DNA of 63,823 nt, filler included, from Collodictyon triciliatum (lineage: Eukaryota): the NCBI GenBank assembly GCA_043381765.1. It is 15 parts of 15 records of this genome, joined end to end, with 100 filler letters (N's around TTAATTAATTAA, not from the genome) between each part and the next. Parts side by side here need not be neighbours in the genome. Positions count along the whole stretch, not along the records: positions 18,762 to 23,346 come from JBHJMP010005949.1; 14 more parts are not named here. The stretch is one strand, 5' to 3'. Shown one piece after another: positions 18,662 to 35,800 of the stretch. A model generated the notes under the pieces. That model was not told the DNA's origin. It saw nothing but the letters and a program-made list of their open reading frames with translations, and made no database searches. The position numbers and the translations under genes were made by a program. Numbering within the stretch: the stretch's first letter is position 1; every line of letters begins with the position of its first letter.

Positions 18662-18939
18662 NNNNNNNNNNNNNNNNNNNNNNNNNNNNNNNNNNNNNNN
18701 NNNNNTTAATTAATTAANNNNNNNNNNNNNNNNNNNNNNNNNNNNNNNNNNNNNNNNNNNNAGCTGGAAGGCATTACTCAATAAGCTCTTTTGCGCTCCT
18801 TCTCCAGAATTGGAATGCGTTTGGTCATTGTGGGTGTTTCTCTAATTGTGGAATACATGGCGATTTTATGTCTTCAGGTATTCCTGGGCACTATGTCATA
18901 TACATATCAGTTGTTCTAACCATATAAAATCAGCTATAG

Positions 18940-19341
18940 GAAATGGGTGATGTTAAGAAGAGAAGCATGGCACTCACCGCGCAACAATTGCGTCCAGACG
19001 CGAAGACATTCTGGGCTGACGCGAGGCCATTTGCTATGGACTATGTGGGTGGATGCATATACTCACGCAAAGCAAGATTCAACAACCAGCCACTCACTCC
19101 TGATTTTTTTTTTCCTTTATTCGATTCAAAGTAGCCACTCACTCATGTTAATAGGCTGGATGACATCATACAAATATCTTTCCTCAACAGCTTCCTTCGC
19201 CACCCGCATATTATCTATTACCCAGACCCTGTAAGAAGAGACATGTGGAAAGAGGCTAAGAAAGACGTTAAACCTCGCCTTGTATCTCTCATGCAAGCAC
19301 AAGACCAGGCTACAGGCCAAAGCGCAGGATGCAATTACTGA
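18940..19341 (+). CDS. 3' exons of an unidentified gene (tentative)
   Basis: AG/GT-flanked segments EMGDVKKRSMALTAQQLRPDAKTFWADARPFAMDY and LDDIIQISFLNSFLRHPHIIYYPDP...CNY*. No family recognised. Confidence 0.3.
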
Positions 19342-19779
19342 TTATCGACTTCTCCGCCACCCAACCACCCAAGTAGCGTCCGTGCAAACGATGATTAGCG
19401 AATTAAAACCAAAACCTCCGCCATCTTGCACAAAATTGAATGGAATATTAAATAAATAAATTAAAATGGTATGAAGAGATGCATGGCATCTAATACGCAA
19501 CATCCACATCAAGGGACGTTTCGTGGCTTTACAAACGATGCATGTTTTCAAATAGGAAGGGGTTCACGAAGGGCTGAATCTCAAGCACTCTATAATAGAC
19601 CGCTGGTGCAACCATTCATCGTGGGTTTATGTGTATTTTGTNNNNNNNNNNNNNNNNNNNNNNNNNNNNNNNNNNNNNNNNNNNNNNNNNNNNNNNNNNN
19701 NNNNNNNNNNNNNNNNNNNNNNNNNNCAGCGGGAGAAACTGCATTAACTGTGAGCGAGAGGCGACCGACAGAAAGAGCA

Positions 19780-20985
19780 CTAGCTGTCTCCAGGCAAGGG
19801 AGGGAGTGTGGTTGGATCGATCATGAAGGCCGAGAAATCATAAAATTGAGGAACTTCGGCAAAGTTGAGGAAATCCCCGATGTGGTTGGTCACAAGATGG
19901 CAGTCAGGCCCCGGAGCAGCATTTGGGTTGCTGTCTTCATTGTGCTTGAAAGCCAGGCATTCCTTGTTGGCAAAGTTGGCGTAGATGGAGAAGCGTCCCT
20001 GATCATGAGCCCAGCGAATAATCCATTGCTCCCAAATATCGTCACCTAGCTTCAGATATTGCTCATTGGTTTTAAGGTTATCCACCGTGGGTTTGAATCC
20101 TGTCACTAGTCGGTGCTCGCGGAACCAGGTGCGGAAATCACGCCACGGTCCAGGAAACATTACTTGTCCAGAGCTACCCATCAATTGATAAGCCACTGGC
20201 ATGTTCCAATTCAGGATGGGGAGGCTTCCTTGCGGCTGGATTGAGGATGGAATCGTATTCAACATCTGTAATGAGACTCCAAAAATGCGCCGAAGGATTG
20301 GGTGCGATGGGCGGCAATAGTGGCTTGTTGCTATTTTCAGCCAGCGATAGAAGTAGGGCGAGACCTCGACGTTGTCTTCCACAAACAAGGCATACTCGTG
20401 AGGACTTAATGGAGTCCATGCTTCGAGCCACTGTCCCAGCCGACCGACGTTGAAAATGCGTTCGTGTACTTTCTTTGTTCCGTGGGGCCATTTCAGCTCT
20501 TCAATTGTAGACATGGTCGCCTCGTGGAGAGGCCAAAGGGATTCGATTTTGGACGTATCACTCTTTTCCTTGTTGGTGAAGGTATCCATGTCGCGAGGAA
20601 GGTCCAAATAAATATCAACGTCGACAGAATCCCCTTGGTAATCTACAGCAGTCAAGGATTTAAAGAGGCGGACGAGCGCGTCGGGTCTCTTGCTAGCAAA
20701 GACTTTGATCTTCAGTCGGAAAAGGTTCAGATCCACATCAGACTGAGCTGTTAGTTTGTAATGTGTCGCTTCGATCAAGTCCTTTCTGGTTCGCGTTAGC
20801 TCCCGATTCAGATGTAGGTCGAATTCATAGTTTTCCTTGAAGTCAAGCTCTGGATCTAAAATTCCTGCGCCGTTGCTATTTACAAGGCCGCCGTCGGGTG
20901 CCTGCCTGTCTGCAAGGCAAAGGGTTGCGCTGAGTACAGCCCACAGCAGTAGAAGTAAGGGAAGGCCTTTGAAGCTGGCCTTCAT
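19780..20985 (-). CDS. Secretory-pathway GT-A fold (GT2-like) glycosyltransferase-like protein, intronless
   Basis: 401-aa ORF with an N-terminal hydrophobic signal. Motifs VFASKRPDALVRLFKSL..DY.GD, WPHGTK, GQWLEAW, ALFVEDNVEVSPYFYRWL and G..MFPGPWRDF match an uncharacterised GT2-like family seen in plants, fungi and protists. Confidence 0.75.
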   Translation of the reverse strand: MKASFKGLPLLLLLWAVLSATLCLADRQAPDGGLVNSNGAGILDPELDFKENYEFDLHLNRELTRTRKDLIEATHYKLTAQSDVDLNLFRLKIKVFASKRPDALVRLFKSLTAVDYQGDSVDVDIYLDLPRDMDTFTNKEKSDTSKIESLWPLHEATMSTIEELKWPHGTKKVHERIFNVGRLGQWLEAWTPLSPHEYALFVEDNVEVSPYFYRWLKIATSHYCRPSHPILRRIFGVSLQMLNTIPSSIQPQGSLPILNWNMPVAYQLMGSSGQVMFPGPWRDFRTWFREHRLVTGFKPTVDNLKTNEQYLKLGDDIWEQWIIRWAHDQGRFSIYANFANKECLAFKHNEDSNPNAAPGPDCHLVTNHIGDFLNFAEVPQFYDFSAFMIDPTTLPPLPGDS

Positions 20986-21954
20986 CGTGGTCTATGAACT
21001 ACGGTGAATAGGTCAGTAGTTGTCCGTTTTAGCCCCACGTGTGCTTGTCTGGCCCTTTCTTCAGCATAACGAGCGATGGGGTTGGTTTTTGATTACGCTT
21101 CAGCCCGTACGCTAACTAAACTTACACGAGCATACTTTGAATCGAAGATAGAATGTGGGAAAGAAAAACAACCTTTCACAGGCATAACTCAAACAAGATT
21201 ATTTGAAGGCGGAAAAGACTCGCTCTTTGGTTGCATCCACCAAGCACCAAATATTCAACAGAACACAGAAAGAAAGGAAAGAATACTTGGGGAAGGAGAA
21301 AAGATTGATATTGTGGGTGATCCTTCCGTTGTAGATTAGTGCCGATCACAGGGAAAAGCCTTGTGGCGCTCTGTTGCTCTCAAAGAAGAGGACGAAATGC
21401 AGGCAGGACTTCCTCTTGGTCTAGAGTCCTACAACCTCACCCAATGCACACTAACCAACGTGAACTAGAGGCTGCTCCATATATATTCCCGCGCCCATAC
21501 ACACACGTAGTATGTAACAGCGGAGAACAAGATCAAGGCAGACGTGGCCCATATGTTTTCAAACAGTGTGAATAGCATAGGGAGGGGTGGCACAGTCTCG
21601 CCTTACCTTGTGTTATTTTTCCTGTGGGGACATAACAACATAGCAGGTTGATTACAAGGGCATGGGCAGGCCTAGGTTTGCCACACAACAGGGAATCAGC
21701 TTCCCCAAGTCTACCGCGCCTGGCTGCTGGGTGCACTCTGTGCCTTTGACTTTGTTTGAATAGAACCAGTTTGGCCACGAGACAGTTTCGCTATGCCCGA
21801 GCCACGAACAAGAACCAAAANNNNNNNNNNNNNNNNNNNNNNNNNNNNNNNNNNNNNNNNNNNNNNNNNNNNNNNNNNNNNNNNNNNNNNNNNNNNNNNN
21901 NNNNNNNNNNNNNNNNCAAAGGGAAACTGGATATTCATTGAATATATACTAAAG

Positions 21955-22164
21955 TGGATTTATCCAAATGGGACAAACATGGCGCATTGGTAGGGAATTG
22001 TTGCTAGGGGGCGTAATGGACGAGAGAGCTTTCACATTTATTAACGAAGTAGTATATCAATCAAAAGATTGGTAAACATGGTCCGCTAGTATCCAAGTTC
22101 CCACCACTTTTTTTCACTATGGCCATGTAGTGGTGAAGACTGCCAGGAAAGACCCGACAGCCTA
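21955..22164 (-). ncRNA. Candidate Fanzor omegaRNA (fRNA) scaffold
   Basis: Starts right after the Fanzor stop. Hairpin GGCUGUCGGG-ucuuu-CCUGGCAGUC (22162-22138; 10 bp with 3 G-U pairs, forms fully only on the minus strand), stem CACCACU/AGUGGUG (22135-22102), and CAAUC-uuuu-GAUUG (22071-22058). Confidence 0.5.
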
Positions 22165-22815
22165 TTATTTAGAGGACGGTGTATGCATTTTTTGAAGGAT
22201 TGAAAGAACTTTCTTGAGTATATCATTATCGCTGTTAAAGTCCCTTGTCAAGAGTATACTTTGTTTGCTTTCTGAGCGATTGCATTCTTTACATGTGAGA
22301 CATCTATATATTTTTTTTGAATTTCCATTCGGTTTCATACAATCCAGTTCTTTTTCGCAGCTACAGCACATCTTGAATGTTCTAAATTCATCTACACTAA
22401 CTGTTTCAAAACGTTTGGATAGTATTTTTCGTAATCCTCTTCCGATTGTTGGCATCAAATGCTTCATCGGAGATTTTCTGCTCCAGTCTCCATACGCCAG
22501 TACAACATCCTTCACAAATGTCTTTTCGATTCGGTCCATAAACAACTCTTCACTTCTTTTTGTGTTAACATACTGTATCCATCTCATCTTTCGAAAAGTT
22601 ACGTGTTCATAAAATCTGCAAAATTCTATCTGATATCATGGTTTCATAGATACATATTTTCGAAATTTTCCATAATCGAACATGCATGAATTATGCTTAC
22701 TCATTTCTGCCTCTAAATCGATTAAAGATGCTCTAGATGTCTCAAACTACTGATTCTCTTCAAAAGTCCTGGCACCAAAAGAAACAACACTTTGTAAATC
22801 TGCTGCCATGTATAC
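22165..22815 (-). pseudogene. Fanzor1 (TnpB-family RNA-guided RuvC nuclease), degenerate C-terminal half
   Basis: Translation LIDLEAEMSKHNS..DYGKFRKYV..*..FYEHVTFRKMRWIQYVNTKRSEELFMDRIEKTF..VVLAYGDWSRKSPMKHLMPTIGRGLRKILSKRFETVSVDEFRTFKMCCSC..IYRCLTCKEC..TRDFNS shows RuvC-II (DE), a CxxC..CxxC zinc ribbon and RuvC-III (RDxN). In-frame TGA at 22636-22638 and TAG at 22747-22749. RuvC-I and the N-terminal half are not visible. Confidence 0.88.
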
Positions 22816-23452
22816 CCCTGACGAATTGTACTTTTCTTTTTTTTTTCTTGCGCAAGAGTATTTTGTGATTTTTTTTATACTGTTCCTCTCAACTCTGTAT
22901 TTGTCTCAGTGTGATAACTACATTTAATCACATTGCGACATATAGAATATATTAAACTAGGAAGTTTCCATTCACGCCAACAAACAAACCTTGCAAATTT
23001 CGCATTTATTATTTGAACTGAAAGGATATCAGAGAAATGAAAATGAAAGAAAAAATGCAGATTCTGGGTGTGGTGTCTATATAATCTTTTGTTCTTGTAG
23101 TTGCTGGTATCGCGATTTCTTGGGGGATGTGTGACTCGCACGATAGAGGCGCGAGTTGGTTGTGAGGGTCAACCAAGTGACTGTTCCACCTGAAACGAAG
23201 AAAGAAGAGGAAAAGCACCATTAATTGTATATTGTTTATACTCCAACCCTCATTAGTCTACCTGTTAACACTATTTTTCCACTTTTTTTTTTTTTTTGTA
23301 AGTATCACAAGCTCTCACCAACACAGGTCGACCAAAGGCGGGCACCNNNNNNNNNNNNNNNNNNNNNNNNNNNNNNNNNNNNNNNNNNNNTTAATTAATT
23401 AANNNNNNNNNNNNNNNNNNNNNNNNNNNNNNNNNNNNNNNNNNNNGAGAGA

Positions 23453-32478: not shown

Positions 32479-32811
32479 GTAATTCCTGTCGAATTTGCTG
32501 GAAGTTTGACGTGACTTCCATAAATTAGCATGTTTTCTCCTCTCAAGTTATCCCTGATTTTCGTTATTATTATTATTATTATTACTTGCTATTTGGAGTG
32601 GCTTACGACTCTTGTTCGTTTTTTTTTTTTTTTTTTTTTTTAAAAAAAATAGATTTAAAGTTTCCAGCTTTTGTGTGGGGTTGATGTTTGAAAAAAAAAT
32701 TTAAAAAGAACNNNNNNNNNNNNNNNNNNNNNNNNNNNNNNNNNNNNNNNNNNNNTTAATTAATTAANNNNNNNNNNNNNNNNNNNNNNNNNNNNNNNNN
32801 NNNNNNNNNNN

Positions 32812-35800
32812 AGACTGAGACTGAGACTGAGACTGAGACTGAGTCTGATATTGGGATTGGGATTGGGATTGGGATTGGGATTGGGATTGGGATTGGGATT
32901 GGGATTGGGATTGGGATTGGGATTGGGATTGGGATTGGGATTGGGATTGAAAGCTGGATATTGAATAAACCGATGTGTTTTGCTGGGTGTCGGTATGTCT
33001 GTACTGGCTGGATTCGGAATGCACTTGTGTCTTTTGTTGAGTATTAGTTTGACCATATTTGTTGGATTCGGAATATACCGGTGTCTTCTGCTGAGTATCG
33101 GTATGACCATTCTTGTTGGATTCAGAATTAACGTGTGTCTTTTGCTGTGTATCAGTATGATCAAATTGGTCGGATTCAGAATGCATTGATGTCTTTTGCT
33201 GGGTATTAGTATTACCATATTGGTTAGATTCGGAATAAACTGGTGTCTTTTGCTGGGTATCAGTGTATCCATACTTGTTGGATTTAGAATACAATAATGT
33301 CTTTTGCTGTGTATTAGTATGACCATAATTGTCGGATTCAGAATACGCTGATGTCTTTTGCTGGGTGTCGGTATGGACATATTGGTTGAATTTAGAATAC
33401 ACTGATGTCTTTTGCCGAGTATCAGTATGCCCGTACTTGTTAGATTCGGAATTCACTGATGTCTTTTGATGGGTATCAGTGTATCCATATTGGTTGGATT
33501 CAGAATTCATTGATGTCTTTTGCTGGGTATCAGTATGTCCATACTTGTTGGATTCGGAATTAACGGGTGTCTTTTGTTGGGTATCAGTATGACCATATTT
33601 GTTGGATTCAGAATTCACTGGTGTCTTTTCCAGGGTATCAGTATGACCATATTTGTTGGATTTGGAATAAACTGATGTCTTCTGTTGAGTATCAGTGTGT
33701 CCATATTTGTTGGATTCAATATTCACTGGTGTCCTTTGTTGGGTATCAGTATGACCATATTTTTTGGATTCAGAATAAACGGGTGTCTTTTGTTGGGTAT
33801 CAGTATGACCATACTGATTGGATTCCGAATAAACGGGTGTCTTTTGTTGGGTATCAGTGTGTCCATATTTGTTGGATTCGGAATTCACTGATGTCTTTTG
33901 CAGGGTATCAGTATGACCGTACTTGTTGGATTCGGAATTCATTGATGTCTTCAGTTGAGTGTCAGTATGACCATATTTGTTGGATTCAGAATTCACTGGT
34001 GTCCTTTGTTGGGTATCAGTATGTCCGTACTTGTTAGATTCGGAATACAAGGGTGTCTTTTGTTGAGTGTCAGTATGTCCATATTTTTTGGATTCGGAAT
34101 ACACTGATGTCTTTTGCTGGGTATCAGTATGACCATATTGGTTAGATTCGGAATATACCGGTGTCTTTTGTTGAGTATCAGTATGACCATACTGGTTAGA
34201 TTCGGAATTCACTGGTGTTTTTTGCTGAGTATCAGTATGGCCAAATCGGTTGGATTCGGAATACACTGGTGTCTTTTGCTGAGTATCAGTGTGTCCATAC
34301 TGGTTGGATTCAGAATATGCCGGTGTCTTTTGTTGGGTATCAGTGTATCCATACTTGTTGGATTTAGAATACAATGATGTCTTTTGTTGGGTATCAGTTT
34401 GTCCATATTTGATGGATTCGGAATAAACCAATGTCTTTTGTTGAGTATCAGTATGACCATATTTATTGGATTCGGAATAAACTGGTGTCTTTTGTTGGGT
34501 ATCAGTTTGTCCATACTTGTTAGATTCGGAATGCATTGATGTCTTTTGTTGGCTATCAGTATGACCATATTGGTTGGATTCGGAATACAATGATGTCTTT
34601 TGTTGAGTGTCAGTGTATCCATACTTGATGGATTCAGAATACAATGGTGTCTTTTGTTGAGTATCAGTATGACCATATTTATTGGATTTAGAATAAACTG
34701 GTGTCTTTTGTTGAGTATCAGTATGACCATATTTATTGGATTTGGAATGCACTGGTGTCTTTTGTTGGGTATCAGTATGTCCATATTTGTTGGATTCGGA
34801 ATAAACTGGTGTCTTTTGTTGGGTATCAGTTTGTCCATATTGGTTGGATTCAGAATGCATTGATGTCTTTTGCAGGGTATCAGTATAACCATATTTGATG
34901 GATTCGGAATAAACCAATGTTTTTTGTTGAGTATCAGTATGACCATATTTGTTGGATTTGGAATGCACTGATGTCCTCTGATGGGTGTCAGTATGACTAT
35001 ATTTATCAGATTCGGAATAAACTGGTGTCTTTTGTTGGGTACCAGTGTTTCCATATTTGTTGGATTCGGAATAAACTGGTGTCTTTTGTTGGGTATCAGT
35101 TTGTCCATATTTATTGGATTCGGAATAAACCAATGTCTTTTGTTGAGTATCAGTATGACCATATTTATTGGATTCAGAATAAACTGGTGTCTTTTGTTGG
35201 GTATCAGTGTATCCATACTTGTTAGATTTAGAATAAACTGGTGTCTTTTGTTGGGTATCAGTATGTCCATACTTATCAGAATCAGAATGCACTTGTGTCT
35301 TTTGGTGAGATTCAGTATGTCCATATTGGTTGGATTCAGAATACAAGGGTGTCTTTTGTTGGGTGTCAGTATGTCCATATTGGTTCGATTCGGAATAAAC
35401 TGGTGTCTTTTGTTGAGTATCAGTATGACCATATTTATTGGATTTGGAATGCACTGGTGTCTTTTGTTGGGTATCAGTATGTCCATATTTGTTGGATTCG
35501 GAATAAACCGGTGTCTTTTGCAGGGTATCAGTTTGTCCATATTTATTGGATTTGGAATGCACTGGTGTCTTTTGTTGGGTACCAGTGTTTCCATATTTGT
35601 TCGATTCATAATACACTGGTGTCTTTTGCTGTGTATTAGTTTGTCCATATTTGTTGGATTCGGAATAAACTGGTGTCTTTTGTTGGGTATCAGTATGACC
35701 ATATTGGTTGGATTCGGAATGCACTAGTGTCTTTTTCTGTGTATTAGTATTACCATATTGGTTGGATTCGGAATAAACTAGTGTCTTTTGATGGGTATCA

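What the first reader, a model, noticed from the sequence alone, without database searches (positions are those of the whole stretch)
22165..22815. Degenerate Fanzor1 RNA-guided nuclease of apparent giant-virus type in a protist scaffold
Seen in the sequence: a minus-strand frame with FYE..FRKMRW.QY, YGDWS..MKH.MPT..GLRK, VDEFRT.K.CC.C, CLTC.EC and TRD.NS, extending upstream through an in-frame TGA (22636) into IDLEAEMSKHNS..DY.KF. Established: this RuvC-II / zinc ribbon / RuvC-III layout defines the TnpB/Fanzor OMEGA nucleases. Inference: from memory the wording is closest to Fanzor1 of Mimiviridae-type viruses, suggesting virus-host transposon exchange. This copy has no introns, lacks RuvC-I and the N-terminal half, has substitutions at conserved sites (RTFK, NSDNDI) and probably a frameshift before the terminal RP motif. 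It is therefore likely dead, but it points to a possibly uncharacterised Fanzor family in this lineage.
Basis: partly seen in the sequence, partly recalled or inferred. Interest (0 to 1): 0.85.

Follow-up and report, generated by a model that had tools for sequence, protein, structure and literature searches.

The report
Dead Fanzor1 transposon relic, giant-virus-type
This is the broken back third of a Fanzor1 gene (a transposon-borne RNA-guided DNA cutter) left in a microbial eukaryote's genome; its nearest identifiable relatives sit in giant viruses, which fits an already published pattern, so it is a real but ordinary relic.

Summary
Window 22126-22873 (minus strand) encodes the C-terminal ~250 residues of a Fanzor1 nuclease. 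The match to a 648-aa relative, P0001, has E=3e-62, and the fragment alone hits three solved Fanzor1 structures (E 1.6e-9 to 2.9e-6). The copy is dead. It lacks everything before about P0001 residue 395, including RuvC-I. It has a +1 frame slip in an A-run, three in-frame stops before the family's C-terminus, and missense changes at conserved sites. Laid contigs from other samples show that most other copies keep sense codons and canonical residues at all these sites, so the defects are private to this copy. Its differences from them run 26 non-synonymous to 8 synonymous, about the neutral ratio. The giant-virus affinity holds: 272 viral contigs encode full-length relatives, 2 of 2 testable records carry NCLDV capsid genes, and trees nest the window lineage in a virus-rich clade. 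The direction of transfer and a "Mimiviridae" label are not shown. The viral relatives are ~2.4-kb TIR elements with a covarying omega-RNA-like 3' end, often beside a DDE_3 transposase; none of this is detectable in the window. The "scaffold" is about 15 short pieces joined by linkers. Virus-host sharing of Fanzor1 elements is already published.

The parts
22126..22873 (-). Fanzor1 pseudogene fragment, equivalent to about P0001 residues 395-642 (end of the RuvC-I/II linker, RuvC-II, zinc ribbon, RuvC-III, C-terminal tail)
   Evidence: tblastn of P0001 aa 403-642 matches 22845-22126, 57% identity, E=1.9e-84. The extension to 22873 in a shifted frame is.
22837..22850 (-). A-run holding a frame slip: the window has 4 extra bases at about 22837-22840 compared with other copies
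   Evidence: table 4 reports '22837 left out 4' in 2 contigs each of X1 and X2. One search shows that the frame upstream is shifted by one. The link between the two is my inference.
22747..22749 (-). In-frame TAG; other copies read CAG (Gln)
   Evidence: 22749 A>G in all laid depth of X1, X2 and X4; codon arithmetic.
22636..22638 (-). In-frame TGA; other copies read AGA (Arg), as does P0001
   Evidence: 22638 A>T, share 0.93 in X1 and 0.97 in X2.
22480..22494 (-). YGDWS: the canonical RuvC-II position, which in Fanzors holds Gly rather than the catalytic Glu
   Evidence: Invariant in alignment A1. It aligns to GDWS/GNWS of SpuFz1 and PpFz1. The rearranged catalytic site is described in PMC10530073.
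22378..22395 (-). VDEFRT: holds the shifted catalytic Glu (equivalent to SpuFz1 E541). The following F (22375-22377) replaces the family's Ser (RTSK).
   Evidence: Alignment to chain 8gkh_P combined with E541; the tag offset of 394 is inferred. F<-S is shown (22376 A>G).
22282..22368 (-). C4 zinc ribbon (CCSC ... CLTCKEC)
   Evidence: Cysteines are invariant in A1. There is a weak Pfam PF07282 hit, E=0.098, on residues 77-116 of the 156-aa frame.
22219..22248 (-). RuvC-III: TRD is retained, followed by NSDNDI where other copies and P0001 read NSANNI
   Evidence: T, R, D, N, S and I are invariant in A1.
22162..22167 (-). TAA TAA. The first is AAA (Lys) in most other copies, and similarity to P0001 continues beyond.
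   Evidence: (22167 A>T, share 0.84 in X1 and 1.00 in X2). The state of the second TAA in other copies was not resolved.
22052..22125 (-). 3' tail of the repeated unit, where an omega-RNA or right end would be expected; neither is detectable here
   Evidence: Depth of laid contigs falls away between 22097 and 22052 (table 2). The covariance model finds nothing here. The fold has z=-1.84.
22991..23346 (-). 3' end of a spliced, polyadenylated cellular transcript on the same gap-free block: exons 23346-23319 and 23189-22991, a GT..AG intron 23318-23190, AATAAA at 23010-23005, and a poly(A) site at 22991
   Evidence: X1 contig record 8 matches 22991-23188 exactly, with a 21-nt homopolymer tail and a continuation that matches 23319-23346. 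The splice sites and the signal are confirmed.
18762..23346 (.). The short assembly piece that actually holds the relic. It is bounded by N44-TTAATTAATTAA-N44 linkers and has inner gaps at 19642-19726 and 21821-21916.

Best explanation
Window 22126-22873 (minus strand) is a dead, 5'-truncated copy of a Fanzor1 gene. In intact form, Fanzor1 is the RNA-guided RuvC nuclease carried by a small cut-and-paste transposon. Its guide (the omega-RNA) is transcribed from the 3' end of the gene and the transposon's right end. This copy was left in the nuclear genome of a microbial eukaryote and has since drifted neutrally. It has lost the WED/REC half and RuvC-I, and it gained a frame slip, three premature stops and missense changes at conserved sites. 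It therefore makes no nuclease. It is one member of a many-copy family seen in related samples, and most copies there keep the open, canonical sequence. The family belongs to a Fanzor1 clade whose identifiable members are TIR-bounded, mariner-type elements of giant viruses. Shown here: the identity, the truncation, the private defects, the multi-copy family, the viral relatives and how those relatives are built. Inferred: that this family reached the host from the giant-virus pool or shares a recent pool with it, and that intact copies still exist in the host.
For: Identity. P0001 (648 aa) is 65% identical to the 156-aa frame, E=3.1e-62. P0001 hits GtFz1, PpFz1 and SpuFz1 at 2.1e-28 to 3.7e-23. 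The fragment alone hits them at 1.6e-9, 4.2e-7 and 2.9e-6, and no other real hit appears.

Truncation. Nothing in the window matches P0001 aa 1-394. In X1 and X2, 4 contigs each continue past 22873 with other sequence; translated by hand, it reads like P0001's HQRRFESKS.

Decay. I examined 34 majority differences in the coding range. These came from the 40 rows the tool listed: I dropped 2 minority or single-run rows and 4 rows outside the frame, and 185 further rows were not shown by the tool. Of the 34, 26 are non-synonymous and 8 synonymous. At 20 of the 26, the majority residue equals P0001's. All three stops, the F in RTFK and both D in NSDNDI are private to the window copy.

Family. 140, 122, 3 and 67 contigs from four runs (three studies) lay on 22052-22879 at 85% identity or better, and almost nowhere else.

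Host context. A spliced, polyadenylated transcript end lies 118 bp away on the same gap-free block.

Viral kin. 272 of 313 candidate stretches in IMG/VR encode relatives, full length at 38-47% identity. Capsid genes are present on 2 of 2 searchable records; 3 of the 5 records asked for were not held. In the careful tree, window+P0001 has 100/100 support and joins a clade holding viral L006/L009 at 97/94, with viral L001/3/4/5 outside. In the wide tree the lineage lies inside a 47-row clade (support 99) that holds both viral groups.

Mechanism in the relatives. They have 33-34-nt TIRs. An HTH+DDE_3 neighbour occurs in 24 of 64 loci with enough upstream DNA. The 3' RNA structure has 7 of 16 pairs with compensatory changes, and the model finds it again in 11 of 17 loci from other clades.
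Against: No member of the window/P0001/P0286 sub-lineage lies on a recognised viral contig. The best viral identity to P0001 is 47%, and its nearest relatives are unnamed short metagenome contigs. So 'viral type' rests on clade membership, not on a close viral sister. The two trees disagree on the sister group. The outgroup used for the first tree (P0003/P0004/L115) moves next to the window lineage in the second, at a weak 68. Most rows carry no origin label, so the direction of transfer is open. No omega-RNA, TIR or transposase remnant is detectable in the window, so the transposon context of this particular family is unproven. The relic's piece is only 4.6 kb and has internal gaps. The runs X1 and X2 are only guessed to be RNA, and summed contig depth is not a copy number.
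Confidence: 0.85

Rival explanations
1. The fragment is part of a decayed integrated giant-virus genome (an endogenous viral element), not a relic of a transposon family living in the host genome.
For: The relatives are abundant on giant-virus contigs. The neighbouring 403-aa glycosyltransferase-like ORF (19783-20991) is intronless and lies in a higher-GC stretch, 0.456 against about 0.35. Endogenous giant viruses that carry Fanzor1 elements are published.
Against: Many diverged copies (85-99% identity) of just this about 0.8-kb segment occur in four runs, and depth stops at its edges. That is the pattern of a dispersed repeat. A GT..AG-spliced, polyadenylated transcript ends 118 bp away on the same block. 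The glycosyltransferase-like ORF has no close viral relative, and its nearest feature clusters are eukaryotic. Hallmark viral genes were not searched for across the whole window.
Confidence: 0.08
2. The block is a contaminant or a misassembled repeat and does not belong to this organism's nuclear genome.
For: The window is a chain of about 4.6-kb pieces joined by artificial linkers. The relic's gap-free block is only 1.43 kb (21917-23346). Repeats are prone to misplacement. No run holds more than 15% of the sampled words of the stretch.
Against: Run X1 holds a contig identical to 22991-23188 that carries a splice and a poly(A) tail, and X2 shows the same junction. The unique flank and the relic are contiguous, with no N between them.
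Confidence: 0.04
3. The frame is still functional, either read with a non-standard genetic code or as a truncated zinc-ribbon/RuvC protein that the host has domesticated.
For: A 156-aa frame is open. The shifted catalytic Glu, the RD motif and the four cysteines are retained.
Against: The three stops are of three different kinds, and each is a sense codon in most other copies. The changes relative to the family run 26 non-synonymous to 8 synonymous. RuvC-I, one of the three catalytic motifs, is absent. Long standard-code ORFs elsewhere in the window end at ordinary stops.
Confidence: 0.02

Closest known systems
Mariner/Tc1-type Fanzor1 elements of giant viruses and eukaryotes (PGv-1, PUl-1 and PUl-4 of Bao & Jurka 2013, PMC3627910; passages read)
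   Same: A Fanzor1 protein with the [TS][TS]-C4-RD layout. The viral relatives found here pair it with an HTH+DDE_3 transposase, have inverted ends and have TA next to both ends. The paper already proposes viruses as spreaders of Fanzors.
   Different: The window copy has none of the element's parts beyond the last third of the gene. Sequence identity of this clade to PGv-1 was not tested, because no named sequence was at hand.
Fanzor1 families A-C of the Chlamydomonas reinhardtii endogenous giant virus, and the host chromosome-17 Fanzor fragment 80% identical to viral family C (bioRxiv 10.1101/2024.09.03.611062; passages read)
   Same: A Fanzor fragment in a host genome whose relatives sit in giant viruses. 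The full elements carry an IS630/Tc1/mariner transposase, and Fanzor-only and fragment forms also exist.
   Different: There the viral and host copies are 80% identical in DNA. Here the closest viral protein is only about 46-50% identical to the fragment, so any exchange is old or its partner is unsampled. Here the host side is a many-copy family.
SpuFz1, GtFz1 and PpFz1, the biochemically and structurally characterised Fanzor1 nucleases (PDB 8gkh, 9cer, 9cf0; PMC10432273, passages read)
   Same: Significant sequence similarity over RuvC-II, the zinc ribbon and the linker. GDW stands at the canonical RuvC-II site and the catalytic Glu is shifted into DE[FY][RK]T.
   Different: These are distant relatives (E 1e-6 to 1e-9 for the fragment). 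They are intact proteins of 600 aa or more with omega-RNAs; the window copy is a broken third.
Spodoptera frugiperda ascovirus Fanzor1 element (bioRxiv 10.1101/2023.08.09.552727; passages read)
   Same: A Fanzor-only, TIR-bounded non-autonomous element in a large DNA virus, with a multi-stem reRNA ending at the right end. The about 2.4-kb viral units found here are built the same way.
   Different: It comes from a different host range (insects), and its relation to this clade was not tested. The window itself shows no such RNA.

Membership tests
Fanzor1 (eukaryotic/viral TnpB-like RNA-guided nuclease) | Significant sequence similarity to experimentally characterised Fanzor1 proteins | tested here: met
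   The fragment scores 1.6e-9 against PpFz1, 4.2e-7 against GtFz1 and 2.9e-6 against SpuFz1. The full-length relative P0001 scores 2.1e-28 to 3.7e-23.
Fanzor1 (eukaryotic/viral TnpB-like RNA-guided nuclease) | Motif D-X(125,275)-[TS]-[TS]-X-X-[C4 zinc finger]-X(5,50)-RD (Bao & Jurka 2013) | tested here: not met
   The leading RuvC-I Asp is absent because of the truncation. [TS][TS] reads T-F. The C4 and RD parts are present. Most other copies of the family read T-S, and the relatives carry GVDPGK. The lineage therefore meets the motif; this copy does not.
Fanzor1 (eukaryotic/viral TnpB-like RNA-guided nuclease) | Rearranged active site: a non-acidic residue at the canonical RuvC-II site and a compensating Glu further C-terminal (PMC10530073; SpuFz1 E541) | tested here: met
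   YGDWS stands at the canonical site. The E of VDEFRT aligns with chain residue 935 of 8gkh_P, which equals E541 if the tag offset is 394 (the offset is inferred).
Fanzor1 (eukaryotic/viral TnpB-like RNA-guided nuclease) | N-terminal WED/REC half and the RuvC-I motif | tested here: not met
   tblastn finds nothing in the window for P0001 aa 1-394. Other copies continue upstream where the window copy breaks off at 22873.
Fanzor1 (eukaryotic/viral TnpB-like RNA-guided nuclease) | Omega-RNA encoded at the 3' end of the gene and the right end of the element | tested here: inconclusive
   It is present with covariation in the viral relatives. The model built from them finds nothing at 22040-22200 with filters off. 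The local fold has z=-1.84. A diverged RNA could escape this model.
Tc1/mariner-type (IS630-like) Fanzor1 transposon | Terminal inverted repeats, a TA target duplication and an associated DDE transposase | tested here: not met
   In the window there is no transposase remnant and the left end is missing. In the viral relatives the TIRs are 33-34 nt and a DDE_3 ORF lies nearby in 24 of 64 loci.
Fanzor2 / IS607-type element | Close similarity to IS607 TnpB and an adjacent serine-recombinase TnpA | tested here: not met
   The only real matches among solved structures are Fanzor1 entries. The neighbours of the viral relatives are DDE_3, not serine recombinases. Fanzor2 profiles were not run directly.
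Endogenous giant-virus element (GEVE) | Flanking genes of viral origin, including hallmark genes | tested here: inconclusive
   On the same piece lie a spliced cellular transcript and a glycosyltransferase-like ORF with no close viral relative. The piece is only 4.6 kb, and hallmark genes were not searched for across the window.

The most novel reading that the evidence does not exclude
The relic marks a high-copy, transcribed Fanzor1 family (the sub-lineage of the window copy, P0001/P0393, P0286 and P0243, defined by a shared ~33-residue insertion). This family branched from within the giant-virus mariner-type Fanzor1 clade and colonised the nuclear genome of a poorly sequenced freshwater protist lineage. 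It evolved fast there (stem length 1.19), replaced or remodelled its omega-RNA, and still has intact, possibly active members. That would be a cellular radiation seeded from a viral Fanzor pool.
Probability: 0.3. Interest if true: 0.45.

Novelty: new member of a known kind. Interest (0 to 1): 0.2.

Why it matters
On its own the fragment matters little. It is a dead third of a gene from a family with thousands of known members, and Fanzor sharing between giant viruses and hosts has been proposed since 2013 and shown in Chlamydomonas in 2024. Its modest value is as a pointer. It shows that a clade of Fanzor1 very abundant in giant-virus metagenome bins (272 viral contigs in one scan) also has a diverged, many-copy offshoot in a cellular eukaryote with no close sequenced relative. 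The viral clade has a compact, well-defined architecture: a 2.4-kb TIR unit with a covarying 3' RNA. That could be of use to people mining compact RNA-guided nucleases.

Tried and rejected
- A search of the window's own genome was not possible; none is held.
- Direct Pfam and NCBIfam scans of the 156-aa frame gave only sub-threshold hits: PF07282 at E=0.098 and an irrelevant TIGR03642 at 0.15.
- PF26935, the precomputed label on all relatives, is not in the local Pfam copy, so I cannot say what it denotes.
- A metagenome scan with exact words from the window copy found no relative. The second scan found 39, none closer than about 51%.
- No RNA holder is listed for the stretch, and no run holds more than 0.15 of its sampled words.
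- In one search, bins 22880-22971 and 23202-23330 had no or almost no cover.
- By eye, the window's 3' tail seemed to share ordered motifs with the viral omega-RNA region. The covariance model built from the viral copies rejects this: nothing appears at the expected place, and the best hit elsewhere has E=0.95. The single-sequence fold is not significant (z=-1.84; 9 of 200 shuffles fold as well).
- There is no transposase remnant in the window. The one tblastn hit came from a Fanzor-like ORF (L046) that had been swept into the transposase cluster.
- The glycosyltransferase-like neighbour has no Pfam hit and no close viral relative.
- P0003/P0004/L115 were used as the outgroup. I abandoned this after the wider tree placed them next to the window lineage.
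- The exhaustive search lists only the best 150 proteins (down to E=5e-48), so named or solved cellular Fanzor1s did not appear and could not be used to root the tree.
- The cluster look-up gave no names for the nearest relatives.
- Earlier notes of this scan, looked up by place and by sequence, held nothing.
- A non-standard genetic code was considered and rejected.

Full report
**What is there.** On the minus strand a 156-aa frame is open from 22635 to 22165. Family libraries alone say little: Pfam gives PF07282 (Cas12f1-like TNB / OrfB zinc ribbon) at E=0.098, below its cut-off, and NCBIfam gives nothing relevant.

A search for longer relatives settles it. P0001, a 648-aa protein, is 65% identical over 97% of the frame (E=3.1e-62). 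Three more relatives follow at 39-51%. They carry the full layout: GVDPGK, YGDWS, EFRTSKLCC.C, CL.C.EC, TRD.NS..NI. P0001 matches the solved Fanzor1 proteins of Guillardia theta, Parasitella parasitica and Spizellomyces punctatus at E 2.1e-28 to 3.7e-23. The window fragment alone, with X at its stops, matches the same three at 1.6e-9, 4.2e-7 and 2.9e-6 and has no other real match. The gene is a Fanzor1.

**Extent and state of the copy.**
- tblastn of P0001 aligns its residues 403-642 to 22845-22126 in a single frame (57% identity, E=1.9e-84). It finds nothing in the window for the first about 400 residues.
- In a frame shifted by one, 22873-22838 reads KNHKILLRKKKK against P0001's RNHKIFLKEKKK; upstream of 22873 the similarity stops.
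- The copy therefore keeps only the last about 250 residues. It lacks the WED/REC half and RuvC-I.
- It has in-frame stops at 22747-22749 (TAG), 22636-22638 (TGA) and 22162-22167 (TAA TAA). Similarity to P0001 continues past the last pair.
- Saito et al. (PMC10432273, passages read) give the SpuFz1 metal ligands as D383, N385, E541 and D606. In the alignment, assuming a tag offset of 394 for chain 8gkh_P, E541 is the Glu of DE[FY][RK]T.
- So the window's VDEFRT holds the catalytic RuvC-II Glu, and TRD holds the RuvC-III Asp.

**The defects are private to this copy.**
- No public run holds more than 0.15 of the sampled words of 21960-23330.
- I laid the four best runs at 85% identity or better (X1 and X2 from one study, X3 and X4 from two others). 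This put 140, 122, 3 and 67 contigs on the stretch, nearly all on 22052-22879. That segment is therefore a dispersed, diverged repeat.
- I converted the tool's best-supported majority differences into codon changes. Of the 40 rows listed, I dropped two minority or single-run rows and four outside the frame, leaving 34. A further 185 rows were not shown by the tool.
- Most other copies read CAG for the TAG, AGA for the TGA and AAA for the first TAA. They read Ser where the window has Phe (RTSK), and Ala and Asn where it has Asp (NSANNI).
- Of the 34 sites, 26 are non-synonymous and 8 synonymous, about what unselected mutation gives (general knowledge, roughly 3:1). At 20 of the 26, the majority residue is the one P0001 has.
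- Four contigs each in X1 and X2 run past 22873 into different sequence. Translated by hand, it resembles P0001's HQRRFESKS.
- Two contigs each lack 4 bases at 22837, which would remove the window's frame slip.
- This locus is therefore a truncated, neutrally decayed copy of a family whose typical sequence is open and canonical.
The P0001 sub-lineage lacks that motif, and the frame simply runs on.

**Where it sits.**
- The window is not one scaffold. Fourteen N44-TTAATTAATTAA-N44 linkers (0.11 expected by chance) cut it into pieces of about 4.6 kb.
- The relic's piece is 18762-23346, with inner gaps at 19642-19726 and 21821-21916. Only the 1.43-kb block 21917-23346 is gap-free.
- On that block an X1 contig matches 22991-23188 exactly. 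It ends in a 21-nt homopolymer tail, and on the other side it jumps to sequence matching 23319-23346.
- The window has GT at 23318, AG at 23190 and AATAAA at 23010. A spliced, polyadenylated transcript therefore ends 118 bp from the relic. This argues for a nuclear location and suggests that X1 and X2, listed only as 'RNA?', are RNA.
- If they are, the Fanzor family is transcribed. That is an inference.
- Other pieces of the window carry intron-split LRR, kinase, EMP70 and Kelch genes.
- A TM9SF exon is at best 70-72% identical to unnamed protist transcriptome entries and 62-65% identical to plants and haptophytes. The source is a eukaryote with no close sequenced relative; 'protist' is plausible but unresolved.

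**Giant-virus affinity.**
- A scan of IMG/VR with the family alignment found 313 candidate stretches, and 272 of them encode relatives. The 80 loci kept are full length (38-47% identical to P0001). Many are giant-virus bins, on contigs up to 289 kb.
- Of five records I asked about, two were held. Both carry NCLDV major capsid genes over Pfam's cut-off, three and two matches.
- The JGI metagenome scan gave 39 relatives. None is closer than about 51% to the fragment, and they include the same capsid-bearing contigs.
- In a careful tree (35 rows, 643 columns), window+P0001 is a firm pair (100/100) on a long stem (1.19). It joins, at 97/94, a clade holding the viral clusters L006 and L009. L009 stands for 72 IMG/VR loci. 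The viral L001/L003/L004/L005 lie outside.
- In a wider FastTree (163 rows, midpoint root) the pair gains P0286 (98). It lies inside a 47-row clade (99) that contains both viral groups, but its immediate neighbours change. My earlier outgroup joins it weakly at 68.
- Nesting in a virus-rich clade is thus robust. The exact sister and the direction of transfer are not. No member of the window's own sub-lineage is on a recognised viral contig, and its relatives are unnamed short contigs.
- 'Mimiviridae-type' was not tested.
- The family is large: 3,147 representative clusters at E of 1e-3 or better, and 537 at 1e-30 or better.

**How intact relatives work.**
- Between viral loci in different contexts, DNA similarity ends about 85-90 bp after the stop codon and about 420-440 bp upstream.
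- The unit is bounded by 33-34-nt inverted repeats, TTTACACC... and ...GGTGTAAA, with TA beside both ends.
- An HTH_28+DDE_3 ORF lies nearby, mostly upstream and divergent, in 24 of the 64 loci with at least 1.8 kb of upstream DNA. One of the 24 is really a Fanzor fragment, and only the representative ORF was scanned in Pfam.
- The last about 50 nt of the ORF plus the 3' tail are more conserved than the coding sequence before them.
- They fold into stems with compensatory changes in 7 of 16 predicted pairs, for example CG 18, AU 7, UA 6 at one pair.
- I built a covariance model from 29 of the 32 tails, dropping L029, L031 and L043, which lack the right end. It finds the same RNA in 11 of 17 loci from other clades; ten matches are full length on the Fanzor strand, and those I checked lie at the 3' end of the Fanzor ORF.
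- This is the architecture published for Fanzor1: a mariner-type or Fanzor-only TIR element with an omega-RNA/reRNA ending at the right end.
- The model finds nothing in the window, and no transposase remnant is there. For the window's own family this mechanism is inferred from kinship, not shown.

**What is known, and the verdict.**
- Bao & Jurka 2013 described Fanzor1 in Tc1/mariner elements of giant viruses and proposed that viruses spread Fanzors.
- Saito et al. 2023 and Jiang et al. 2023 note Fanzor1 in giant viruses and multi-copy Fanzors in eukaryotes.
- Erazo-Garcia et al. 2024 report a host-genome Fanzor fragment 80% identical to a copy in an endogenous giant virus of Chlamydomonas.
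- I read passages of these papers, not their supplements, which were closed and may list members of this clade.
- My two literature searches were for Fanzor in giant viruses, not for this sub-lineage.
- Earlier notes of this scan describe similar giant-virus elements in other genomes; I treat them as leads only.
- The finding is real and correctly named, but it is a dead copy of a known kind of element in a known kind of situation: a new member of a known kind, of low interest in itself.

Noticed in passing
window 4634, 9332, 14019, 18706, 23391, 28074, 32756, 37379, 42055, 46729, 51403, 55832, 60498, 62150: Fourteen N44-TTAATTAATTAA-N44 junctions, about every 4.68 kb. The window is a chain of short, similar-sized assembly pieces joined by six-frame-stop linkers, so gene neighbourhood across these points is meaningless.
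   Followed up: yes
window 32764-37386 (-): A 1,540-codon open frame made almost wholly of a tandem unit of about 18 residues (...QQKTPVYSESNKYGHTDT...). It runs from one linker to the next, and long frames are also open on other strands and frames of the same repeat.
   Followed up: no
window 19783-20991 (-): An intronless 403-aa ORF with a signal-peptide-like start, in a higher-GC stretch (0.456), on the same piece as the relic. It has no Pfam hit. Language-model features place it nearest eukaryotic GT13/GNT-I-like clusters (score 0.97). No close viral relative was found.
   Followed up: partly
L001-L080 (IMG/VR loci), e.g. L035:4521-6914: A very abundant about 2.4-kb Fanzor1 TIR element in giant-virus bins. 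It has 33-34-nt inverted ends and a covarying 3' RNA that overlaps the stop codon. The hairpin GTAGG...CCTAC contains the TAG stop.
   Followed up: partly
L029:3729-3915 and L064:6763-6949: Two viral copies carry GC-rich insertions inside the omega-RNA-like stems. In L029 stem 1 is replaced by a long GC-rich hairpin; in L064 hairpin 2 is enlarged and its base is kept by compensatory changes.
   Followed up: no
window 22029-22046 (-): CGTTAATAAATGTGAAAG loosely resembles the viral right-end block CGTTTTAAATGAGAAAAGG, and it lies near where the depth of other copies ends. This may be chance in AT-rich DNA; the covariance model does not support it.
   Followed up: partly
window 21960-22113: A lake-water metagenome run (X3) holds a contig 98% identical to this flank (3 differences in 154 bases). 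It then continues into a more diverged version of the Fanzor 3' end. This is either the orthologous locus of a close relative or a sign that the flank is part of a larger repeat.
   Followed up: no
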